DNA of 64,000 nucleotides from Ostreococcus lucimarinus (Eukaryota): assembly GCA_000092065.1 (NCBI GenBank), contig CP000585.1; one strand, given 5' to 3'. This document shows positions 34,238 through 41,401 of this stretch, piece after piece. Each line of letters opens with the position of its first letter. Position 1 is the stretch's first letter. The notes beneath the pieces are model-generated. The model was not told the DNA's origin and made no database searches. It was given only the letters and a program-made list of their open reading frames with translations. The position numbers and the translations under genes are program-made.

Positions 34238-35638
34238 TCAGTGAAGGTACATGGCGACGACGACGGTGACGTTGTCGCTCGATCCTCGATGCATACTCGT
34301 ATCCAGAAGTTCCTGGGACGCGGCCGTACAGGCCGCTTCGATGGCTTTCTTGTCGGTCGATGTACACTTGCCTTCGCTCAAGACGCCGCGCGTGGCGAGT
34401 ATTTTGCGAGCAATGTCACCCGCCTCTTGATCTCGAATGACGTCCCACATGCCGTCAGAGGCGAGAATAATGAAATTGATATCTTCGGTGAGCTCGTAAC
34501 GCGACACGTCTGGTTCTGCGGTGACGCCAGAGTCTTTCGGTCGCTTGAAATCGATGTCCCCGAGCGAACGCGAGACGGCCAAAGCCGCTCGCACGGGTTT
34601 GTACGGATGATCCGCGATGACTCGCCAGCAGCCGCAAAATTCAATCTTGCCCCCCACTGCGGTTATTCTGCGCCGTTCATTCGACATCGACGGCTTGTGG
34701 TCTTCGGTCATGGCGCGAGTGCGTCCATCAGCGTAGCTGACGACTGCTCTAGAGTCGCCAGCATGCGCTGTGAAGAGCGCGCCGCCGATTTGCAAGACGC
34801 ACACCGCCGTGCTCCCGTCTCGCCTGCCCTCCGCGGCGGTGCTGTTGAGAATTTCGTCGTCGCAATCCATGTACATTTTCTTCAAAGACGTTTCCATATC
34901 AACGTTGAACCGCGTGAGTCTTTCCGGGCACGACGGCGACGAATCTTGTAAGAGCACGTCTGGCGCGAGAAAAGTGTGCATGCGTTCGCTTGCAAACTGC
35001 GCCGCCCAGTCACCGTTGTGACCATCGTACACGCCCAAAAACGAACGACGAACGCCATCGCAACCCGTCAACCCAAAAGGTTTCAGCTCAGTCACGGCGC
35101 TGTACCTGTCCTCCATGTACGCCCGCTGTCCTTGTTCGAAAGCCACGCCGACGACGACCTGGGCGCCCACCAAAGGAATATTCGCCTCGCCATCCGCCGT
35201 CGCCGTCGCCGCCTCGCTCACTTCATCGGACAACGGCGGACTCGCGCGCGCGGAATCTAAATCTCTCGCTCCCCCAGAACTCGTAGATTCCGATCCCATA
35301 TCGACATCCTCGCGCGCTTTCGCGCTCTCATCCGTCGTCGCGCGCGCCTTTTCGCGTCGCTCTCGTCGACTCTTCCCGTGCTTCCCCTTCCTCCGGCGTT
35401 TCTCTCGCGCCTCCCACGCCTCCGCCGCCGCGTTCGCCTCCCCCCGTCTCTTCTCCTGACCCACCGCGCGCGCTTCATTCGTCTCGCGCGCCTCCTCCTC
35501 GCTCGACGACCCCGCGCCTCGGCGTTCGCGCGTCGCCTTCGCCCCGTCCCTCGCGCCCTCATCCCTCATCACCCCCTCCCGTCCTCGTCCGGCGTCCTCC
35601 ATCGCTCCGCTTTCGCTCGCGTCCGCGCGAACCATCAT
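34238..35638 (-). CDS. Protein phosphatase 2C (PPM family)
   Basis: There is a true ATGATG at 35638. PP2C motifs run in order: RAYMEDRYS, FLGVYDGHNGDWAAQF, TAVCVLQIGGALFTAHAGDSRAV, ILASDGMWDV and GSSDNVTVVVA. Confidence 0.85.
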   Translation of the reverse strand: MMVRADASESGAMEDAGRGREGVMRDEGARDGAKATRERRGAGSSSEEEARETNEARAVGQEKRRGEANAAAEAWEAREKRRRKGKHGKSRRERREKARATTDESAKAREDVDMGSESTSSGGARDLDSARASPPLSDEVSEAATATADGEANIPLVGAQVVVGVAFEQGQRAYMEDRYSAVTELKPFGLTGCDGVRRSFLGVYDGHNGDWAAQFASERMHTFLAPDVLLQDSSPSCPERLTRFNVDMETSLKKMYMDCDDEILNSTAAEGRRDGSTAVCVLQIGGALFTAHAGDSRAVVSYADGRTRAMTEDHKPSMSNERRRITAVGGKIEFCGCWRVIADHPYKPVRAALAVSRSLGDIDFKRPKDSGVTAEPDVSRYELTEDINFIILASDGMWDVIRDQEAGDIARKILATRGVLSEGKCTSTDKKAIEAACTAASQELLDTSMHRGSSDNVTVVVAMYLH

Positions 35639-36006
35639 CGATCGTCGTCCCGCGCCGAGCGCGTCTCCCGCCGCCGCCGTCGCGACGCGCGTCGCGCGCG
35701 CGGATTCGAACGTTCACGATGCCGCGCCGCCGGTCCGCGTTCGCGCGCGTCGCGCGTCGCGCGCCGTCGCGCGTCGCGCGCGCGCGTCGAGCGTCGCGAG
35801 ACGCGCGCGCTCGAGTCGATCGCGCGCTCTTCGCGCGCGTCGCGCGTCGCGTCGCGCGTCGCGGAGCGTCGACCGGCGGCGCGCGCGCGGCGGGAAAAGC
35901 GCGCGAAGAGCGCGCGCGCGCGCGATCGGGGGTCGTATTGAAACACCCGGAAGTACTATCAACGCGCACGCCCGAGATGCGGATCACGCGCCAGCGCTGG
36001 CGGCCC

Positions 36007-36405
36007 GTGCGCGCTGTGTCCGTATAAAGACGCGCGAAGGACCCATGTGCGCGCTGTGTCCGTATAAAGACGCGCGAAGGACCCATGTGCGCGCTGTGTC
36101 CGTATAAAGACGCGCGAAGGACCCATGTGCGCGCTGTGTCCGTATAAAGACGCGCGAAGGACCCATGTGCGCGCTGTGTCCGTATAAAGACGCGCGAAGG
36201 CCCGTGTGCGCGCTGTGTCCGTATAAAGACGCGCGAAGGCCCGTGTGCGCGCTGTGTCCGTATAAAGACGCGCGAAGGACCCATGTGCGCGCTGTGTCCG
36301 TATAAAGACGCGCGAAGGCCCGTGTGCGCGCTGTGTCCGTATAAAGACGCGCGAAGGCCCGTGTGCGCGCTGTGTCCGTATAAAGACGCGCGAAGGCCCG
36401 TGTGC
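36007..36405 (+). repeat. 40-bp minisatellite, about 10 tandem copies in two variants (40-bp ...gaaggacccatgt... and 39-bp ...gaaggcccgtgt...); each copy contains TATAAAG
   Basis: Direct reading: gtgcgcgctgtgtccgtataaagacgcgcgaaggacccat repeats head-to-tail from 36007. Copies 5, 6, 8, 9 and 10 carry the ggcccgtg variant. The array ends about 60 bp before the ATG of the downstream + gene. It sits in the 826-bp divergent intergenic region between PP2C (-) and the TPR-J-GlcNAcT gene (+). Confidence 0.9.
36007..36405 (+). promoter_or_regulatory. Array of canonical TATA-box motifs (TATAAAG, + orientation) upstream of the gene starting at 36465
   Basis: Each minisatellite unit carries ccgTATAAAGacg. 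The most proximal copy is about 90 bp upstream of the ATG at 36465. Whether these function as TATA boxes is an inference. Confidence 0.4.
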
Positions 36406-36464
36406 GACGAACGTCGACCGGCGCGAGCGTTTCGCGAGCGTTTCGAACGCCAGACGACGACGCC

Positions 36465-39122
36465 ATGGCGCGCGTCGACGTCGAGCGCGCGGCGCGCGCG
36501 TCGAGCGCGCGCGAGGCGAGCGACGCGGGACGACGCGCGCTCGCGATGGGGGAACACGCGCTCGCGCGGGCGTTTTACGACGACGCGCTGGCGATGATGA
36601 CGGAAGACGCGACGGACGAGGCGAGGGACGAGCGGGAGGGGCGACGACGGCGCGCGGAGGTGATGGCGAATCAGAGCGCGTGCGCGCTGGCGGTCGAGGC
36701 GTGGGACGACGCGATGGAGCGCGCGGAGCGGGCGATCGCGTGCGATGAGGGGTACGCGAAGGCGCACGCGAGACGGGCGGCGGCGCTGCGAGGGAAGCGG
36801 GAGTACGCGCGCGCGAGGGAGAGTTTGAAGGTGTGTCGCGCGTTGCTCGCGCGGGAGGGGGAGACGAAGATGATTCGTGACGTGGACGCGATGGTGGCGG
36901 AGATAGACGCGGACGAGGCGCGAGGAGAACAAGCTGCACGCGTGGGGATGCAAGTAAAGATGGGATCGAAGGCGCAGGCGAAACCAAACTTTTCAGCGGC
37001 GACGACGAAGGCGAAGAAGGTGGTGACTTTCGATCCAAAGCTCGACATAGATTGCGACGAGGATGTGTTCGATTCGCGAGCGTCTCAACCGCCGAGTCGG
37101 CGTTCGTCGTCGAAGCCCATGCTGATGGATCTAGGCGTGTTGGCGGTGGAAAAGGCGATCGAGATGCAACGCGCCGTCGTCGAAGCTAGAGTCGAGGGAG
37201 GCTTCGAGCACAAGCGATGTAAGATGTGCGGCAACGTGTGTCACGCAAAACTCACCGCGTGTTCGTCGTGCTGCTTGCCGCTTGTATCGGTGGATTCTTA
37301 CGAGCCGGCGACTTTGCCGCGCGCGGGCGCTGAGGCGATTTACGAGAGCGATTCTGACGACGGTGAGGAGAACGCGACGACGACGAGCGCTGAGAAAGAC
37401 GCTGAGCCGTCGTATCTCGACTCTGATCCTTGGTGGGTGAGATATTACACCCGCTCGGCGCTGACCGAGCCGACGCACTCACGTGGTTTGGACCCGGCGC
37501 TTCGATCGAGTTACGCCGCGCTCGACGTTGCGCCGGGGAGCGACGAAGTCACTGTGCGCGCGGCGTTTAGAAACGCGCTCGCGCGAGCGCACCCCGACGC
37601 CGGCGGATCCGCAAAGGAGCTAGACGTGGTAGCGAGAGCTTATGACGCGATATCTCTCGACTTTTGGCGACATGATGAAGGCGCAGCGCGATTGCGTTTG
37701 CAGTCTCGAAGGCTCGCCGACGGATCGATTGAATTCTTCGACTCGGCGAATGAAGACATATTCGTCGTACTCGAAGTTTACAGAAACAGAGAAGCAGAGC
37801 ACACGTTGAAACGGTTATTCAGCGAAGCTTCCGATCCTTCGCGCGTCTACGTCGGCGTTACATGGCAATACAAGTCCACGACGCCGCCGCCCGACGCGCT
37901 CGGCGCGCGCATCGACCGCTTGCACACGAACGTCTACGTACTGACAGAGGAAATCCAAAAGCGCGCGGCGGACGTGAAAGATCCGGTAGAGCAGGAGAAA
38001 TATTTGACTAAAATGCGACGCTTGCAACTCAAAGCTCAGCGAACGGAAGACGCGGAGGAAAAGAGGTGTCACTCAGCAAGGGTGCTCGAAGCTCGTTTCC
38101 GAGATCACGTGCGAGAGACTCACATGCCGTGGGACGCTTCGGAAGGTCCATCGTACGCGCGACATTTAGCGATGCGCAAATGGGGTGGGGAAAAGTATGT
38201 TTTGCACATTGACGCCATGACGGTCGTCGACAAGGGATGGGATGAAATCTTGGTGTCTGAACTCGAACGCTGCGGCGACGACAAACGCGTACTCACGGCT
38301 GCGCCGTTAGGATACGAGCTTAAAACTCAACCGGTCGTCGAAGAAGAGACGTTCAGACAAATGTATCAGACCGACGTGTACGGCACGATCAAAGATCGGC
38401 TGCCAGCCGTGAGTGCTCTCGGTGAAATCGATCCCGCGCGCGCGCCCGCGATTACGTGCGCGCGCGAATTCGGCGAGTCGTTGTTCCGCACGCACGCCAG
38501 GCAACTCGCGGAGGTTCCGAGCGAGCCGACGCCGGCGCTCTTCTTCAACAGTAGTTTTGCGTTCGCGCGCGCCGAGGCTTTCGTCAGAGACGCCCCGCCC
38601 GACGCCCACGCGCCGTTCTTACATCTAGGGGAAGACTTGAGCGCGAGCGCGAGGCTGTACACGCGCGGCTGGAACTTGTGCACGCCCGCGCGCGTTCCCG
38701 TGTTACGCTGCTACTCGAACGCGCCGCGCGCGATGTGGATGGAAGATCACCGTTCGGGTAAAATGCTGTACGCCGACGCGCGTTTCGGCGTCGGTAACGA
38801 ATCCGACGCGGCGCGGCGAGAATTTCTCAATTTACTCTCGCGCCGGCGCGTCCTGCAGTTGGTCGCCGCCGCGGACGACAGCTCGCAGACCTCCCGGGAC
38901 GATCCCGTGCGTTTCACGCGCGCCTACGGCGCCGGGCGCGACAGATCCATCGAGTCATTCATCGAGCACATCGGCGTCGACTTCACCGCGAAACGAATCT
39001 CGACGCGCGCCGCGTGCGGCGGACACGACGGCGCGTTCGTCGCGTCTTCGAAATCGCTTCCCGCGCCGTTCGCGAGCGCTCGGACGGGCCCGAGCGAGCG
39101 CGCCGCGCGTCGGTATGTGTAA
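36465..39122 (+). CDS. Multidomain protein: N-terminal TPR-like region + central J (DnaJ) domain + C-terminal GlcNAc-transferase-like domain (Pfam 'Glycosyltransferase (GlcNAc)'/GT60-like)
   Basis: The start is at MARVDVERAAR. Residues 30-200 are Ala-rich helical repeats with TPR-like periodicity (...HALARAFYDDALAMM...YAKAHARRAAALRGKREYARARESL...). The J domain is ...YAALDVAPGSDEVTVRAAFRNALARAHPDAGGSAKELDVVARAYDAIS (HPD tripeptide). The C-terminal domain is IFVVLEVYRNREAEHTLKRLFSEASDPSRVYVGVTWQ ... GPSYARHLAMRKWGGEKYVLHIDAMTVVDKGWDEIL. This matches, from memory, the conserved blocks of the Skp1-type GlcNAc-transferase family. Confidence 0.6.
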   Translation: MARVDVERAARASSAREASDAGRRALAMGEHALARAFYDDALAMMTEDATDEARDEREGRRRRAEVMANQSACALAVEAWDDAMERAERAIACDEGYAKAHARRAAALRGKREYARARESLKVCRALLAREGETKMIRDVDAMVAEIDADEARGEQAARVGMQVKMGSKAQAKPNFSAATTKAKKVVTFDPKLDIDCDEDVFDSRASQPPSRRSSSKPMLMDLGVLAVEKAIEMQRAVVEARVEGGFEHKRCKMCGNVCHAKLTACSSCCLPLVSVDSYEPATLPRAGAEAIYESDSDDGEENATTTSAEKDAEPSYLDSDPWWVRYYTRSALTEPTHSRGLDPALRSSYAALDVAPGSDEVTVRAAFRNALARAHPDAGGSAKELDVVARAYDAISLDFWRHDEGAARLRLQSRRLADGSIEFFDSANEDIFVVLEVYRNREAEHTLKRLFSEASDPSRVYVGVTWQYKSTTPPPDALGARIDRLHTNVYVLTEEIQKRAADVKDPVEQEKYLTKMRRLQLKAQRTEDAEEKRCHSARVLEARFRDHVRETHMPWDASEGPSYARHLAMRKWGGEKYVLHIDAMTVVDKGWDEILVSELERCGDDKRVLTAAPLGYELKTQPVVEEETFRQMYQTDVYGTIKDRLPAVSALGEIDPARAPAITCAREFGESLFRTHARQLAEVPSEPTPALFFNSSFAFARAEAFVRDAPPDAHAPFLHLGEDLSASARLYTRGWNLCTPARVPVLRCYSNAPRAMWMEDHRSGKMLYADARFGVGNESDAARREFLNLLSRRRVLQLVAAADDSSQTSRDDPVRFTRAYGAGRDRSIESFIEHIGVDFTAKRISTRAACGGHDGAFVASSKSLPAPFASARTGPSERAARRYV

Positions 39123-39194
39123 AGCGCGCGTCTCCGGTCGCCAATCCATCACTGCACCGCGCGCTCGTCGATTCGCGCGCGCGCGGTCGTCGCG

Positions 39195-40301
39195 ATGCGA
39201 TCGTCGGCGTCGGCGTCGCGCGCGCCGCCGCGCGCGCGACGGCGCGCGCGCGCGCGGCGCGCGGCGCGCGATGGACGCGCCGCGACGCGTCGCGACGCCG
39301 GCGCGCGCGCGCTCGCGGACGTCGCGCGCGTCGTCGCGCTCGTCGGGACGCTCGGCGCGAGCGCGGCGGAACGGTTCGAGGCGCGCGCGCCGGACGACGG
39401 CGTCGCGAGCGCGGTGGCGAGCGCGGTGGCGCTCGTCGCGGGCGCGGCGGGGATGGCGATGAGCCTGGAGCGCGAGACGGACGCGCGCGAGGCGGCGCTC
39501 GCGGATAAAGTGCGCGCGCAGGCGGACGCGATGGCGGACGCGGCGTGGGAGAAGATCGAGGCGAGCGAGGCGAGCGCGGAGGCGGTGAGGCGCGACGTCG
39601 CCGCGCGAGGGGTGGCGCGAGTGAACGGAGTGATGCGGGAGGACACGGCGAGGGCGACGGAGGCGTACGTGCGCGAGACGCTGCGGACGAACGACGCGGG
39701 AGGGGATGGGAGGAATTTATCCGTGGAGTCGTTCGGGAACGTGTATTGCAAGAAGAATAGGTGGGATTTGAAACTCGCGTACGACGCGCCCGTGCGCGCG
39801 GCGCTGCGGGAGTGCGTGGCGTCGATGGGGGAAGCGCTGACGGCGGTGTGCGGCGCGGATGCGAAACTCGTCGAGCTCGCGGCGTTGGTGAGCGACCCGG
39901 GGTCGACGCGACAGCCGGTGCACCCGGACACGGCGTACAGGAGAGATCCCTCCGTGTTCACGTGCTTCGTGGCGCTGCAGGACGTCGAGCGAGACATGGG
40001 TCCGACGCTGTTCATCCCAGGAACGAACAACGCGCAGGCGCACGTCGAATTTAGGGAGGGTAACGAACGCGAAGGGCCAGTGTTTCGTCGACCGTACGAG
40101 CTCGGCGTCATCTCTCGCGGCGATGCGACTTTGTTTGATAGCAGAACGTTGCACTGCGGAACGGAAAACGACAGCTCGCGACGACGAGTGTTGTTTTACT
40201 TTTCGTTTCAACGAGCGGACGGCGACAATCCAAACGCCGCGATTAGCACGATTAGAACCGAGTTGCGTGACAAGTACACGCTCGCAGATTTATTGGCTTA
40301 A
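39195..40301 (+). CDS. Phytanoyl-CoA dioxygenase (PhyH)-family 2-oxoglutarate/Fe(II) oxygenase, paralog 1
   Basis: The HxD...H facial triad is in TRQPVHPDTAY...MGPTLFIPGTNN...H...DATLFDSRTLHCGTENDSSRRRVLFYFSF, typical of the PhyH family. The N-terminal roughly 90 aa are Arg/Ala-rich. The start codon is uncertain; an alternative M lies near 39458. Confidence 0.7.
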   Translation: MRSSASASRAPPRARRRARARRAARDGRAATRRDAGARALADVARVVALVGTLGASAAERFEARAPDDGVASAVASAVALVAGAAGMAMSLERETDAREAALADKVRAQADAMADAAWEKIEASEASAEAVRRDVAARGVARVNGVMREDTARATEAYVRETLRTNDAGGDGRNLSVESFGNVYCKKNRWDLKLAYDAPVRAALRECVASMGEALTAVCGADAKLVELAALVSDPGSTRQPVHPDTAYRRDPSVFTCFVALQDVERDMGPTLFIPGTNNAQAHVEFREGNEREGPVFRRPYELGVISRGDATLFDSRTLHCGTENDSSRRRVLFYFSFQRADGDNPNAAISTIRTELRDKYTLADLLA

Positions 40302-40306
40302 GATGT

Positions 40307-41401
40307 TTAATGATTATACGACGACGAATCCATGGACGCCATGCGTCCCGCCGTGAGGCGCATGTCGAAGACGTCGCTTCGTATGCTCCACTCCGCGCCC
40401 GCATTTCTACGCGTCGGGGCGTCAGGAATGGGAGGTTTCAAAAACGTCAGCGTCATCAACGCGCGACGCCCGTATTCGTTCGCACCGCCTTGGTGAAATG
40501 TGCGCGCATCGTACAACACGGCATCGCCTTTACGCAACTCGGCGTCGCAACACCTCGATTTGGCGAGTCGCGCAAACTGTTCTTCGTTCCACTTCGTCAC
40601 CGGAAACGCGTCGTGTGACGCCTTGTCTTGCGTGCCGAGCACAAAACACGTCGGTCCCATCTCCGGGATGACGTCTTGTAGCGCTATGAACAAAGAATAC
40701 AGCGGCGCGTGCGGCGCGTCGAACGCCACATCCGGATGCAAAACTTGTCTATCCGCCCCTCGTTCTGTCGCCAGCACGCTCATCTCCACCATCATCGCCT
40801 CCGCAGTTGCGTCTTCGACGTGCTCTAATATCGAATTCACCCCTCCTCGACCGCACGCTCGCAACAGCAAATCACGCGTGGCCCCATCGAATCCGAGCTT
40901 GACGTCGGTGCGCCGCAACGCGTCCCCGTACGTCGCCTTGACGGAATCACAAATCACGTTCAACTCCCCGAGCACCGCATCACACGCATCGTGCGGGACG
41001 ACATCTTTCAAAAATACCGCCCCATCGCGCTTCAACACCGCCGCGGCGTCGCGCGCGTCGTCATTCGTAATTATCCTTCGCGCCGCCGGCGCCGCCGCGA
41101 GCGCCCCGCCTCGCACCATCGCCTCGCGCTGCGCCGCGCTCTCCACTCTCAGGTACGTCGCGAGCGCGACTTCGGGCGATGAAGGTCCGAGTCCGTCGTC
41201 TTCACCGCCGTCCACGGCGTCGAGCGCCGGATCGACGACGGCGGTGACAAAGTCACTGATTCGTCTCCATACATTCGTCCGCGTCATCGTCCTATCGCGT
41301 CGCGACGTCGCGGCGCTCGTCGACGCGCGCCGCGACCGCGAGACGCGATCGCTCGACGCCGCGCGCGCGGCGACGGCTGGCGACGCGACGACGCGCGTCA
41401 T
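40307..41401 (-). CDS. Phytanoyl-CoA dioxygenase (PhyH)-family 2-oxoglutarate/Fe(II) oxygenase, paralog 2
   Basis: DRQVLHPDVAFD...MGPTCFVLGTQD...H...DAVLYDARTFHQGGANEYGRRALMTLTF is collinear with paralog 1 (same HPD...GPT...G(T)...LxDxRTxHxG...N motifs). It is convergent with paralog 1; the stops are 6 bp apart. Confidence 0.7.
   Translation of the reverse strand: MTRVVASPAVAARAASSDRVSRSRRASTSAATSRRDRTMTRTNVWRRISDFVTAVVDPALDAVDGGEDDGLGPSSPEVALATYLRVESAAQREAMVRGGALAAAPAARRIITNDDARDAAAVLKRDGAVFLKDVVPHDACDAVLGELNVICDSVKATYGDALRRTDVKLGFDGATRDLLLRACGRGGVNSILEHVEDATAEAMMVEMSVLATERGADRQVLHPDVAFDAPHAPLYSLFIALQDVIPEMGPTCFVLGTQDKASHDAFPVTKWNEEQFARLAKSRCCDAELRKGDAVLYDARTFHQGGANEYGRRALMTLTFLKPPIPDAPTRRNAGAEWSIRSDVFDMRLTAGRMASMDSSSYNH

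What the first reader, a model, noticed from the sequence alone, without database searches (positions are those of the whole stretch)
36465..39122. Unusual TPR + J-domain + GlcNAc-transferase-like fusion, an O-GlcNAc-transferase-like architecture built from a different GT family
One 885-aa ORF combines three parts: an N-terminal Ala-rich TPR-like region, a bona fide J domain with an HPD loop (Hsp70 co-chaperone), and a C-terminal domain that matches, from memory, the two conserved blocks of the Skp1-type GlcNAc-transferase family (PF11397/GT60-like). Those blocks are IFVVLEVYRN...PSRVYVGVTWQ and GPSYARHLA...GEKYVLHIDAMTVVDKGWDE. Canonical OGT (GT41) also pairs TPRs with a GlcNAc-transferase domain. 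Coupling a cytoplasmic GlcNAc-transferase to a J domain is not an architecture I know to be described, so it would be worth pursuing. It suggests delivery to Hsp70 clients, or glycosylation of Hsp70 itself.
Basis: partly seen in the sequence, partly recalled or inferred. Interest (0 to 1): 0.7.

Follow-up and report, generated by a model that had tools for sequence, protein, structure and literature searches.

The report
J-domain co-chaperone fused to GlcNAc-transferase
A green picoalga (Ostreococcus lucimarinus) makes one conserved soluble protein that joins an Hsp70-recruiting J domain, a chaperone-type TPR domain and a zinc ribbon to a family-60 GlcNAc-transferase domain; the combination is real, old and unstudied, but two of the three predicted metal-binding residues of the enzyme domain are replaced, so it may not transfer sugar in the usual way.

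Summary
Window 36465..39122 (+) is one 885-aa ORF. Residues 67-885 are identical to O. lucimarinus XP_001417797.1, a model that lacks the first 66 residues.

The protein has four modules:
- a 3-repeat TPR of the Hop/SGT/PP5 class (family profile vs PDB, E 2.4e-13), with only 3 of 5 carboxylate-clamp residues;
- a J domain (family profile vs PDB J domains, E 1.5e-6) with an invariant HPD;

There is no signal anchor.

The J+GT60 fusion forms one clade (bootstrap 93/100). Named members come from Ostreococcus, Micromonas, Pycnococcus/Pseudoscourfieldia and Prasinococcus. It is machine-annotated but not discussed in any paper I could find.

New caveat: the family's conserved D-x-H plus distal His are D-A-M and Arg here. 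These residues are present in 105 of 128 GT60 domains, and the distal His aligns with the Mn ligand His359 of GalNAc-T2. The clade also has an 80-aa helical insert under strong constraint.

Best reading: a nucleocytoplasmic class-C J-protein whose GT60 domain selects the substrate. Catalytic competence is open. This is a new variant of known kinds, of moderate interest.

The parts
36465..39122 (+). Single ORF of 885 aa plus stop: TPR, zinc ribbon, J domain, GT60. The organism is Ostreococcus lucimarinus CCE9901.
   Evidence: Searches give the ORF. One search shows aa 67-885 are identical to XP_001417797.1 (P0026). Searches give full-length orthologues at 54-99% identity.
36492..36944 (+). N-terminal domain of three TPR repeats (aa 10-160), of the Hsp70/Hsp90 co-chaperone class. 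Clamp residues N69, K99 and R103 are invariant. The two clamp positions in TPR1 helix A (S19, R23) are not conserved.
   Evidence: The profile A3 against PDB gives Hop TPR2B at E 2.4e-13, then SPAG1, SGT, PP5, RPAP3, Cyp40, SGT1 and CHIP. The alignment is. dN/dS is 0.51. The domain is absent in Micromonas commoda.
37200..37289 (+). C4 zinc ribbon (aa 246-275; HKRCKMCGNVCHAKLTACSSCC). K250, C252, C255, C266 and C269 are invariant across the whole J-GT60 clade.
   Evidence: Invariance is shown. dN/dS is 0.07. PDB matches are weak: RadD zinc ribbon E 0.003, ZRANB2 E 0.13. There is no Pfam family match.
37491..37700 (+). J domain (aa 343-412), followed by an invariant linker motif, DFWRHDEGAxRLR, that leads straight into the GT domain.
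   Evidence: The profile A2 against PDB J domains gives E 1.5e-6. PF00226 passes threshold in some orthologues. dN/dS is 0.19.
37590..37598 (+). HPD tripeptide (H376-P377-D378), the Hsp70-ATPase-stimulating loop of J domains.
   Evidence: It is invariant in 15 orthologues and in all Mamiellophyceae sampled. It is degenerate (HPA, HPL, HPS) in some deeper lineages.
37755..38987 (+). GT60 / PF11397 glycosyltransferase domain (aa 431-841), with a GT-A fold.
37872..38108 (+). Clade-specific helical-hairpin insert of about 80 aa (aa 470-548) inside the GT domain. Canonical GT60 domains have about 20 aa here.
   Evidence: Insert length is 76-95 aa in 16 of 18 J-fused members, against a mode of 20-21 in others. 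The model shows helices at domain residues 63-77 and 82-110. dN/dS is 0.03.
38211..38219 (+). D583-A584-M585. The family's D-x-H metal motif has its His replaced by Met.
   Evidence: At this column His occurs in 113 of 128 domains, Met in 8 and Arg in 4. DAM is found in all Bathycoccaceae orthologues. The motif lies at the end of a beta strand, the usual DxD position.
38706..38708 (+). R748. It occupies the family's conserved distal His, which aligns with the Mn ligand His359 of GalNAc-T2.
   Evidence: His occurs in 115 of 128 domains. The hhalign local alignment is, using a GalNAc-T2 sequence verified. Within Bathycoccaceae this position is either H or R.
37785..37787 (+). N441. The family's Y-R-D motif after strand 1 reads Y-R-N here.
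   Evidence: Asp occurs in 113 of 128 domains and Asn in 8, all of them Bathycoccaceae.

Best explanation
This is a soluble, nucleocytoplasmic class-C (type III) J-domain protein of prasinophyte green algae. Its specificity module is a GT60 (polypeptide alpha-GlcNAc-transferase-type, GT-A) domain.

Shown:
- One conserved ORF encodes TPR, zinc ribbon, J and GT60.
- The J domain keeps an invariant HPD.
- The TPR belongs by sequence to the Hop/SGT/PP5 co-chaperone class.
- The GT domain is a complete GT60 fold, closest among solved structures to GT27.
- There is no membrane anchor.

Inferred:
- The GT60 domain binds a specific polypeptide segment.
- The J domain, attached through an invariant short linker, recruits cytosolic Hsp70 to that bound protein and triggers its ATPase, so that the substrate is handed to Hsp70 or remodelled by it.
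- The TPR adds a second, weaker contact with the chaperone machinery. It is dispensable, since Micromonas commoda lacks it.

Whether sugar is still transferred in Ostreococcus is open; I put it at about 50:50. D583 and most family-invariant residues remain, but the His of D-x-H is Met and the distal His is Arg. The usual Mn2+ site is therefore remodelled. The domain may work with altered metal chemistry, or as a non-catalytic binding module.
For: - Domain calls: PF11397 at E 3.4e-105. J profile against solved J domains at E 1.5e-6, with invariant HPD. TPR profile against Hop, SGT and PP5 at E 2.4e-13.
- Single gene: the ORF is continuous, and full-length orthologues are collinear in many assemblies.
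- Purifying selection on every module: zinc ribbon 0.07, J 0.19, GT 0.20, GT insert 0.03.
- No TM or signal anchor.
- The J-fused GT60s form one clade (bootstrap 93/100), so the fusion arose once and has been kept. Named members come from Ostreococcus, Micromonas, Pycnococcus/Pseudoscourfieldia and Prasinococcus.
- About 25 of the most conserved family positions are retained; the changes are D441N, H585M, H748R and the conservative E724D.
- That J domains with HPD stimulate Hsp70, and that class-C J-proteins use their other domain to pick the client, is established knowledge of the family. It was not tested here.
Against: - No experiment or interaction data exist for any member.
- The single-sequence J and TPR hits are below Pfam thresholds.
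- The TPR keeps only 3 of 5 carboxylate-clamp residues and evolves fastest, at dN/dS 0.51, so EEVD binding is doubtful.
- In deeper lineages the GT-proximal J domain has HPA, HPL or HPS instead of HPD. The J fold next to GT60 can therefore persist without Hsp70 stimulation, which may mean it has a structural role.
- The acceptor is unknown.
- The mapping of D-x-H and the distal His to Mn ligands rests on homology with GT27 and a weak local hhalign match (E 0.087), not on a GT60 structure. None is solved.
Confidence: 0.5

Rival explanations
1. The protein is a fully active cytoplasmic UDP-GlcNAc:polypeptide alpha-GlcNAc-transferase. Through its J and TPR modules it is delivered to Hsp70 and glycosylates many Hsp70-bound unfolded clients, or Hsp70 itself. 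It would be a functional analogue of OGT, or of ER quality-control glycosylation.
For: - The GT60 fold is complete and under purifying selection.
- D583, W592-D593, E723, R730 and most other invariant positions are kept.
- Met can be an Mn2+ ligand in a GT-A enzyme: beta4Gal-T1 uses Asp254, Met344 and His347 (recalled from the literature, not tested here).
- O. tauri-type orthologues keep the distal His.
- The J and TPR modules are of the co-chaperone type.
Against: - In O. lucimarinus both conserved His are gone (M585, R748), and the distal position flips between H and R among close relatives. That is not expected for an essential metal ligand.
- Micromonas has D-S-R plus Val.
- Nothing points to broad substrate range.
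- Class-C J-proteins are usually client-specific (established knowledge).
Confidence: 0.2
2. It is the prasinophyte counterpart of the Skp1 hydroxyproline GlcNAc-transferase Gnt1. It acts on, or merely binds, Skp1, and the J domain brings Hsp70 to Skp1 or to SCF complexes.
For: - It is soluble with no anchor, like Gnt1.
- In the full NJ tree the J clade sits beside PhyA(P4H)-fused GT60s.
- Skp1-pathway enzymes are often fused to partners and can act non-enzymatically on Skp1 (PMC8724618; title and abstract of PMC13278062).
- The TPR profile also matches the SGT1 TPR at E 2.6e-7. SGT1's TPR is known to bind Skp1 in yeast (recalled, not tested).
Against: - The sister-group relation is not supported by bootstrapping. 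In the 93 replicates where the J clade was recovered, the sister group was P4H-majority in 47 and included TM-type members in 40.
- No PhyA, PgtA or Skp1 data for these algae could be obtained with the tools.
- The neighbouring dioxygenases are of the PhyH type, not P4H, and their adjacency is ordinary synteny.
- SGT1 is only one of many TPR hits.
Confidence: 0.15
3. The J domain is a structural 'J-like' appendage of this GT60 clade and does not engage Hsp70. The protein is simply a divergent soluble GT60 enzyme or pseudo-enzyme with accessory domains.
For: - The GT-proximal J domain has HPA in Prasinococcus and Pycnococcus, HPL in P0235 and HPS in P0115.
- The invariant J-GT linker suggests rigid packing against the GT domain.
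Against: - HPD is invariant in every Mamiellophyceae orthologue, across 54-99% identity in Bathycoccaceae and down to 36-39% in Micromonas.
- Pycnococcus-type and P0116-type proteins carry an additional N-terminal J domain with HPD.
- A co-chaperone-class TPR travels with the J domain.
Confidence: 0.12
4. The gene is a fusion artefact: two or three separate genes merged by a reading-frame coincidence or a mis-assembly.
For: One Pycnococcus provasolii annotation splits the orthologue into a 284-aa J protein and a 483-aa transferase.
Against: - The 885-codon ORF is uninterrupted.
- The same collinear architecture appears in many independent assemblies and lineages.
- The inter-domain linkers are conserved and constrained.
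- Other Pycnococcus and Pseudoscourfieldia records give a single protein of 837-840 aa.
Confidence: 0.02

Closest known systems
CAZy GT60 / Pfam PF11397: Dictyostelium and Toxoplasma Skp1 Hyp alpha-GlcNAc-transferase Gnt1, and the Golgi polypeptide alpha-GlcNAc-transferases of Dictyostelium and Trypanosoma cruzi
   Same: The profile match is full length (E 3.4e-105). The fold is GT-A and closest to GT27, as the literature states for this family (PMC8724618). Like Gnt1 it is soluble with no anchor. Most family-invariant residues are present.
   Different: - It carries N-terminal TPR, zinc ribbon and J modules.
- It has an 80-aa helical insert.
- D-x-H reads D-A-M, the distal His is Arg, and YRD reads YRN.
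- It forms its own clade within the family.
- Donor, acceptor and activity are unknown.
PhyA-Gnt1 fusion proteins (prolyl 4-hydroxylase + GT60) of oomycetes, Guillardia and other protists
   Same: GT60 is fused N-terminally to a partner domain acting on the same pathway. They are neighbours of the J clade in the full NJ tree.
   Different: The partner there is a 2OG-Fe(II) oxygenase, not a J domain. Their metal motif is canonical, DSH plus H. The sister relationship is not robust.
TPR-containing J-domain co-chaperones: DNAJC7/Tpr2 (cytosolic) and DNAJC3/p58IPK (ER)
   Same: They combine a Hop-class TPR with a J domain in one polypeptide and have no class A/B G/F region or client-binding CTD.
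   Different: Those proteins have 6-9 TPRs with complete clamps and end at the J domain (established knowledge). Here there are three TPRs with 3 of 5 clamp residues, a zinc ribbon, and a large GT domain after the J domain.
O-GlcNAc transferase OGT / plant SEC and SPY (TPR + GT41)
   Same: It is a nucleocytoplasmic protein with N-terminal TPRs followed by a sugar-nucleotide transferase domain. OGT TPRs appear among the weak TPR hits.
   Different: GT41 is a GT-B fold forming a beta linkage through an inverting mechanism, preceded by a long substrate-binding TPR superhelix (established knowledge). Here the fold is GT-A of the GT60/GT27 type, and the short TPR is of the co-chaperone type and dispensable. 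It is not homologous.
GT27 polypeptide GalNAc-transferases (GalNAc-T1, T2, T4, T12; TgGalNAc-T3)
   Different: Sequence identity is 12-15%. There is no lectin domain and no membrane anchor. The Mn ligands His226 and His359 of T2 correspond to Met585 and Arg748 here.

Membership tests
GT60 / PF11397 glycosyltransferase family | Full-length match to the family profile above the curated threshold | tested here: met
   352.8 bits against a cutoff of 21, E 3.4e-105, model positions 1-351 of 352
GT60 / PF11397 glycosyltransferase family | GT-A fold related to GT27 polypeptide HexNAc-transferases | tested here: met
GT60 / PF11397 glycosyltransferase family | Conserved D-x-H motif plus distal His (predicted Mn2+ ligands by homology with GT27) | tested here: not met
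   The window has D583-A584-M585 and R748. The family has His at these columns in 113 of 128 and 115 of 128 domains.
GT60 / PF11397 glycosyltransferase family | UDP-GlcNAc-dependent alpha-GlcNAc transfer to a polypeptide hydroxyl | not testable with these tools
   Needs an enzyme assay.
Skp1 Hyp GlcNAc-transferase (Gnt1, EC 2.4.1.229) | Soluble cytoplasmic enzyme without a signal anchor | tested here: met
   Maximum hydropathy 1.36, against 2.81 for an anchored GT60
Skp1 Hyp GlcNAc-transferase (Gnt1, EC 2.4.1.229) | Phylogenetic placement with characterised or PhyA-fused Gnt1 sequences | tested here: inconclusive
   It lies next to P4H-fused GT60s in the full NJ tree, but the sister group is unresolved in bootstraps.
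Skp1 Hyp GlcNAc-transferase (Gnt1, EC 2.4.1.229) | Co-occurrence with PhyA prolyl 4-hydroxylase and PgtA in the same genome, and action on Hyp-Skp1 | not tested
   The rest of the genome was not available. The neighbouring oxygenases are PhyH-type.
J-domain proteins (Hsp40), class C | J-domain fold recognisable by profile | tested here: met
   The orthologue profile against Ydj1, DnaJ, Sis1 and Hsp40 J domains gives E 1.5e-6 to 1e-5. The single sequence scores only 18.7 bits, below the cutoff of 27.8.
J-domain proteins (Hsp40), class C | His-Pro-Asp loop between helices II and III | tested here: met
   H376-P377-D378 is invariant in 15 orthologues.
J-domain proteins (Hsp40), class C | Stimulation of Hsp70 ATPase | not testable with these tools
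   Needs a biochemical assay.
EEVD-binding TPR co-chaperone domains (Hop, PP5, SGT, CHIP class) | Three-repeat TPR domain with sequence similarity to the class | tested here: met
   Hop TPR2B at E 2.4e-13; SGT, PP5, RPAP3 and Cyp40 at E 1e-8 to 1e-6
EEVD-binding TPR co-chaperone domains (Hop, PP5, SGT, CHIP class) | Two-carboxylate clamp, five residues (Hop TPR1 K8, N12, N43, K73, R77) | tested here: not met
   N69, K99 and R103 are invariant. The positions equivalent to K8 and N12 are S19 and R23 and vary among orthologues (manual register against the TPR consensus).
O-GlcNAc transferase (GT41) | GT-B GT41 catalytic domain preceded by a long TPR superhelix | tested here: not met
   The catalytic domain is GT-A GT60 and there are only three TPRs.

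The most novel reading that the evidence does not exclude
A lineage of green picoalgae has turned a cytoplasmic GlcNAc-transferase of the Skp1-Gnt1 kind into the client-recognition module of an Hsp70 co-chaperone. The GT60 domain has a rebuilt, possibly metal-free or dead, active site and a new helical hairpin. It grips a specific cytosolic protein, Skp1 being the obvious candidate by descent. The J domain then fires Hsp70 on that protein. This would be the first direct physical coupling of the Hsp70 cycle to a nucleocytoplasmic glycosylation enzyme or pseudo-enzyme.
Probability: 0.2. Interest if true: 0.75.

Novelty: new variant of a known kind. Interest (0 to 1): 0.55.

Why it matters
Cytoplasmic protein glycosylation outside the OGT/SPY system is known mainly from the Skp1 pathway of protists. 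J-domain proteins are the specificity factors of the Hsp70 system. A protein joining the two has been kept across several prasinophyte lineages. That suggests a link between chaperone action and either sugar modification or sugar-transferase-like substrate recognition, and this link has not been studied.

The Mamiellophyceae (Ostreococcus, Micromonas, Bathycoccus) are abundant marine primary producers, and O. tauri is genetically tractable (both from general knowledge), so the hypothesis can be tested.

The clade also offers a natural series, from a canonical to a remodelled metal site and from HPD to HPA. This could show how a glycosyltransferase drifts towards a binding module.

Practical point: the RefSeq model of this gene is N-terminally truncated and loses half of the TPR domain.

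Tried and rejected
1. Hydroxylase link. Two PhyH-family dioxygenase genes lie just downstream, which suggested a hydroxylate-then-glycosylate pair. The whole block PQ-loop/PP2C/this gene/PhyH/PhyH/SET is simply syntenic in Bathycoccaceae. Mamiellaceae have a different conserved neighbourhood, RPS9/gene/TRAM_LAG1/Cupin_8. Two deeper loci show no oxygenase. I rejected this as evidence of a functional link.

2. Solved GT60 structure. None was found by sequence or by profile, so metal-ligand mapping had to go through GT27.

4. Full-length AF2 model. It was poor (pLDDT 50.4), so inter-domain geometry could not be read.

5. Zinc ribbon classification. There was no Pfam hit and only weak PDB hits. 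It remains a generic C4 ribbon.

6. Sister group of the J clade. The full NJ tree suggested PhyA-fused Gnt1, but bootstraps do not support it.

7. Literature. Six searches found nothing on the fusion. Two West-lab papers were not held.

8. The afdb50 fold library was unavailable.

9. Word-index homologue searches with the GC-rich query returned only 17-20 proteins. A canonical-GT60 profile was needed to obtain depth.


Full report
**What is there.** Window 36465..39122 (+) is a single ORF of 885 codons plus a stop. Residues 67-885 are identical to XP_001417797.1 of Ostreococcus lucimarinus CCE9901 (UniProt A4RXQ3, 'J domain-containing protein', 819 aa), so the window comes from that genome. 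The public model starts at Met67 and so cuts the N-terminal domain in half. The longer reading is supported in two ways. Orthologues are collinear from residue 1, and matches of the orthologue profile to solved TPR domains begin at profile positions 3-13. A still longer GTG start at 36402 would begin inside a tandem repeat.

**Domains.**
- GT60. On the single sequence, Pfam gives a decisive full-length PF11397 match over aa 431-841 (E 3.4e-105). It gives only sub-threshold hits for DnaJ (E 0.0019) and TPR (E 0.22).
- J domain. A profile of eight orthologues (A2) matches solved J domains of Ydj1, DnaJ, Sis1 and human Hsp40 at E 1.5e-6 to 1e-5. H376-P377-D378 is invariant in all 15 aligned orthologues.
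- TPR. The N-terminal profile (A3) matches Hop TPR2B at E 2.4e-13, followed by SPAG1, SGT, PP5, RPAP3, Cyp40, SGT1, Sec72, FKBP51/52-type and CHIP TPRs. These are the Hsp70/Hsp90 co-chaperone class of three-repeat domains. Of the five 'carboxylate clamp' residues of that class, N69, K99 and R103 are invariant. The two in the first helix correspond to S19 and R23 and vary among orthologues. EEVD binding should therefore not be assumed.
- Zinc ribbon. The Lys and the four Cys are invariant even in the most distant relatives. It matches no Pfam family. It resembles other zinc ribbons only weakly (RadD E 0.003, ZRANB2 E 0.13).
- Localisation. No segment approaches transmembrane hydrophobicity. The maximum 19-residue Kyte-Doolittle mean is 1.36, against 2.81 for an anchored GT60. 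The N-terminus is the TPR itself. The protein is most likely nucleocytoplasmic.

**One gene, under selection.** Full-length orthologues (54-99% identity in Bathycoccaceae, 36-39% in Micromonas) occur in many independent genome and metagenome assemblies. Against the closest other species (locus L007, dS about 0.2), dN/dS by module is:

| Region | dN/dS |
|---|---|
| whole protein | 0.28 |
| zinc ribbon | 0.07 |
| J domain | 0.19 |
| GT domain | 0.20 |
| helical insert within the GT domain | 0.03 |
| TPR | 0.51 |

The J-to-GT linker, DFWRHDEGAxRLR, is nearly invariant. An assembly or annotation artefact is excluded for practical purposes.

**How widespread.** An exhaustive HMMER search with the GT domain found 2221 relatives at E <= 0.001. 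I scanned the best of these with the J and TPR profiles and with Pfam. The cluster look-ups name Ostreococcus lucimarinus and O. tauri, Micromonas commoda, Pycnococcus provasolii / Pseudoscourfieldia marina and Prasinococcus capsulatus. Further J+GT60 proteins come from unnamed metagenomic lineages, some of them syntenic with Micromonas.

On a 95-taxon alignment of the GT domain alone, all J-fused sequences form one clade in 93 of 100 NJ bootstraps, and Mamiellophyceae form a clade in 89 of 100. The fusion therefore arose once and is old.

Architectures vary around a core:
- TPR-Zn-J-GT60 in Bathycoccaceae and some Mamiellaceae;
- Zn-J-GT60 in M. commoda, where no TPR coding sequence lies upstream;
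- J-TPR-J-GT60 in Pycnococcus and P0116;
- a double zinc ribbon in Prasinococcus and P0235.

Public names are automatic: 'J domain-containing protein', 'GlcNAc-domain-containing protein' and 'glycosyltransferase family 60 protein'. I found no paper that discusses the fusion. The one survey that mentions prasinophyte GT60 calls functional inference 'speculative at best' (PMC3797821).

I aligned 128 diverse GT60 domains to a family HMM. The window protein keeps about 25 of the most conserved positions: F433, Y439, R440, T447, P458, G464, Q468, R550, G561, A565, R566, E576, D583, W592, D593, F700, P711, D713, E723, R730, G735 and others.

It departs at four positions:

| Family motif | Family count | Window residue |
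|---|---|---|
| Asp of Y-R-D | 113 of 128 | Asn441 |
| His of D-x-H | 113 of 128 | Met585 |
| distal His | 115 of 128 | Arg748 |
| second Glu of G-E-E | 118 of 128 | Asp724 (conservative) |

D583 ends a beta strand, the standard DxD position. A local profile alignment places the GT60 block 'GEE..RLwThGw...H' on GalNAc-T2 'WGGENLEISFRVWQCGG...SRVGH' (the T2 sequence was verified against 2ffu). This puts Arg748 opposite His359. In GalNAc-T2, Asp224, His226 and His359 hold the Mn2+ (established knowledge of GT27). So only one of the three predicted metal ligands remains.

The pattern across the clade is a mosaic:

| Lineage | Metal motif |
|---|---|
| Prasinococcus, P0235, P0123 | canonical D-S/A-H plus H |
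| Pycnococcus | DSH plus T |
| Micromonas and relatives | D-S/A-R plus V |
| all Bathycoccaceae | D-A-M, with the distal site flipping between H and R |

All but the two most basal members also carry an insert of about 80 aa in place of about 20 aa. It is modelled as a helical hairpin and is the most constrained part of the protein.

I cannot decide from sequence whether the Ostreococcus domain is active with altered metal chemistry, metal-independent, or a binding-only pseudo-enzyme. In favour of altered chemistry, a Met ligand is known in beta4Gal-T1 (recalled). In favour of metal independence, Arg can replace the cation in metal-independent GT-A enzymes such as C2GnT-L (recalled). I put activity at roughly even odds.

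**Neighbourhood.** Two PhyH-family 2OG dioxygenase genes follow directly, at 39195..40301 (+) and 40307..41401 (-). This was tempting, because GT60 Gnt1 acts on hydroxyproline. However, the whole block is ordinary synteny within Bathycoccaceae. Mamiellaceae have a different conserved block, and two deeper loci have no oxygenase. I draw no functional link.

**Mechanism.** Shown: domain identities, invariant HPD, soluble nature, single origin and retention of the fusion, and the remodelled metal site. Inferred from established knowledge of J-domain proteins: an HPD-bearing J domain docks on ATP-bound Hsp70 and triggers hydrolysis, and class-C members use their other domain to choose the client or the site of action.

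The most economical model is that the GT60 domain binds a particular polypeptide, with or without glycosylating it, and the rigidly attached J domain loads Hsp70 onto that polypeptide. The TPR would add an auxiliary contact with chaperones. I give this model 0.5.

Rivals:
- a Skp1-dedicated Gnt1 derivative (0.15). It is attractive because Skp1-pathway transferases are often fused and can act non-enzymatically (PMC8724618; PMC13278062), but it is phylogenetically unresolved;
- a purely structural J-like domain (0.12), suggested by HPA, HPL and HPS in some lineages;
- an artefact (0.02).

**Comparison with known systems.**
- By profile and fold, the catalytic domain is a GT60 member. It fails the family's conserved metal motif, so I file it as a divergent subfamily rather than a typical member.
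- It is not related to OGT. GT41 is GT-B, and the TPRs are of another type and number.
- The N-terminal half resembles TPR-J co-chaperones such as DNAJC7 in composition, but not in repeat number, clamp integrity or domain order.
- The nearest architectural precedent within the family is the PhyA-Gnt1 fusion of oomycetes and other protists.

**Verdict.** The protein is a new variant of known kinds: a conserved, uncharacterised J-domain/GT60 fusion with a remodelled active site. Interest is moderate (0.55). The architecture is unusual and testable in a tractable alga. It is already present, unremarked, in public databases, and nothing yet shows what it acts on.

Noticed in passing
window 36007-36406: There are ten head-to-tail copies of a 39-40-bp unit (GTGCGCGCTGTGTCCGTATAAAGACGCGCGAAGG + 5-6 nt), with a 34-bp core identical in all ten. 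Each copy contains a TATAAA. The array sits in the divergent intergenic region between the PP2C gene and this gene, 60-460 nt upstream of the ATG. It occurs nowhere else in the window and is absent from the orthologous spacer of the closest species (L007).
   Followed up: partly
window 36465-36662 (aa 1-66): The public RefSeq/UniProt model (XP_001417797.1 / A4RXQ3, 819 aa) starts at Met67 and omits the first 66 residues, which removes TPR repeat 1 and part of repeat 2. The O. tauri record OUS47905.1 (814 aa, against the 880-aa ORF) looks truncated in the same way.
   Followed up: partly
window 39195-40301 (+) and 40307-41401 (-): Two adjacent, tail-to-tail PhyH-family (PF05721) 2OG dioxygenase genes lie directly downstream. 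The pair is conserved in all Bathycoccaceae loci. In Mamiellaceae a Cupin_8 (JmjC-type) oxygenase gene lies two genes downstream instead. I judged this to be ordinary synteny, but the recurrence of a 2OG oxygenase near a GT60 gene in both families is curious.
   Followed up: partly
loci L002-L006 compared with window 39123-39194 and L007: Other Bathycoccaceae have a dienelactone-hydrolase (PF01738) gene on the minus strand between this gene and the first PhyH gene. O. lucimarinus and its closest relative lack it, leaving only about 70-120 bp between the two genes.
   Followed up: no
proteins P0306/P0136/P0137 (Prasinococcus type), P0235, P0115, P0121: Across the J-GT60 clade the GT-proximal J domain reads HPA, HPL or HPS where the GT metal motif is mostly canonical. 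It reads HPD in Mamiellophyceae, where the GT metal motif is degenerate. P0123 keeps both, and P0115 has lost both. This could be a trade-off between the two activities, but the sample is small.
   Followed up: partly
proteins P0109 (2022 aa), P0110 (1641 aa) and similar: These are giant proteins made of four or more tandem complete GT60 domains, from unnamed metagenomic contigs.
   Followed up: no
proteins P0329 and P0325: Other unusual GT60 fusions turned up. P0329 is an alphaproteobacterial MAG protein with GT2 (PF00535) + GT60. P0325 is a peroxiredoxin/redoxin (PF00578/PF08534) + GT60 protein.
   Followed up: no
window 34238-35638 (-): The upstream PP2C phosphatase gene has a long N-terminal extension of about 160 aa rich in Arg, Glu and Ala before the catalytic domain. 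The GC-rich region produces many long spurious antisense ORFs around 35400-37000.
   Followed up: no
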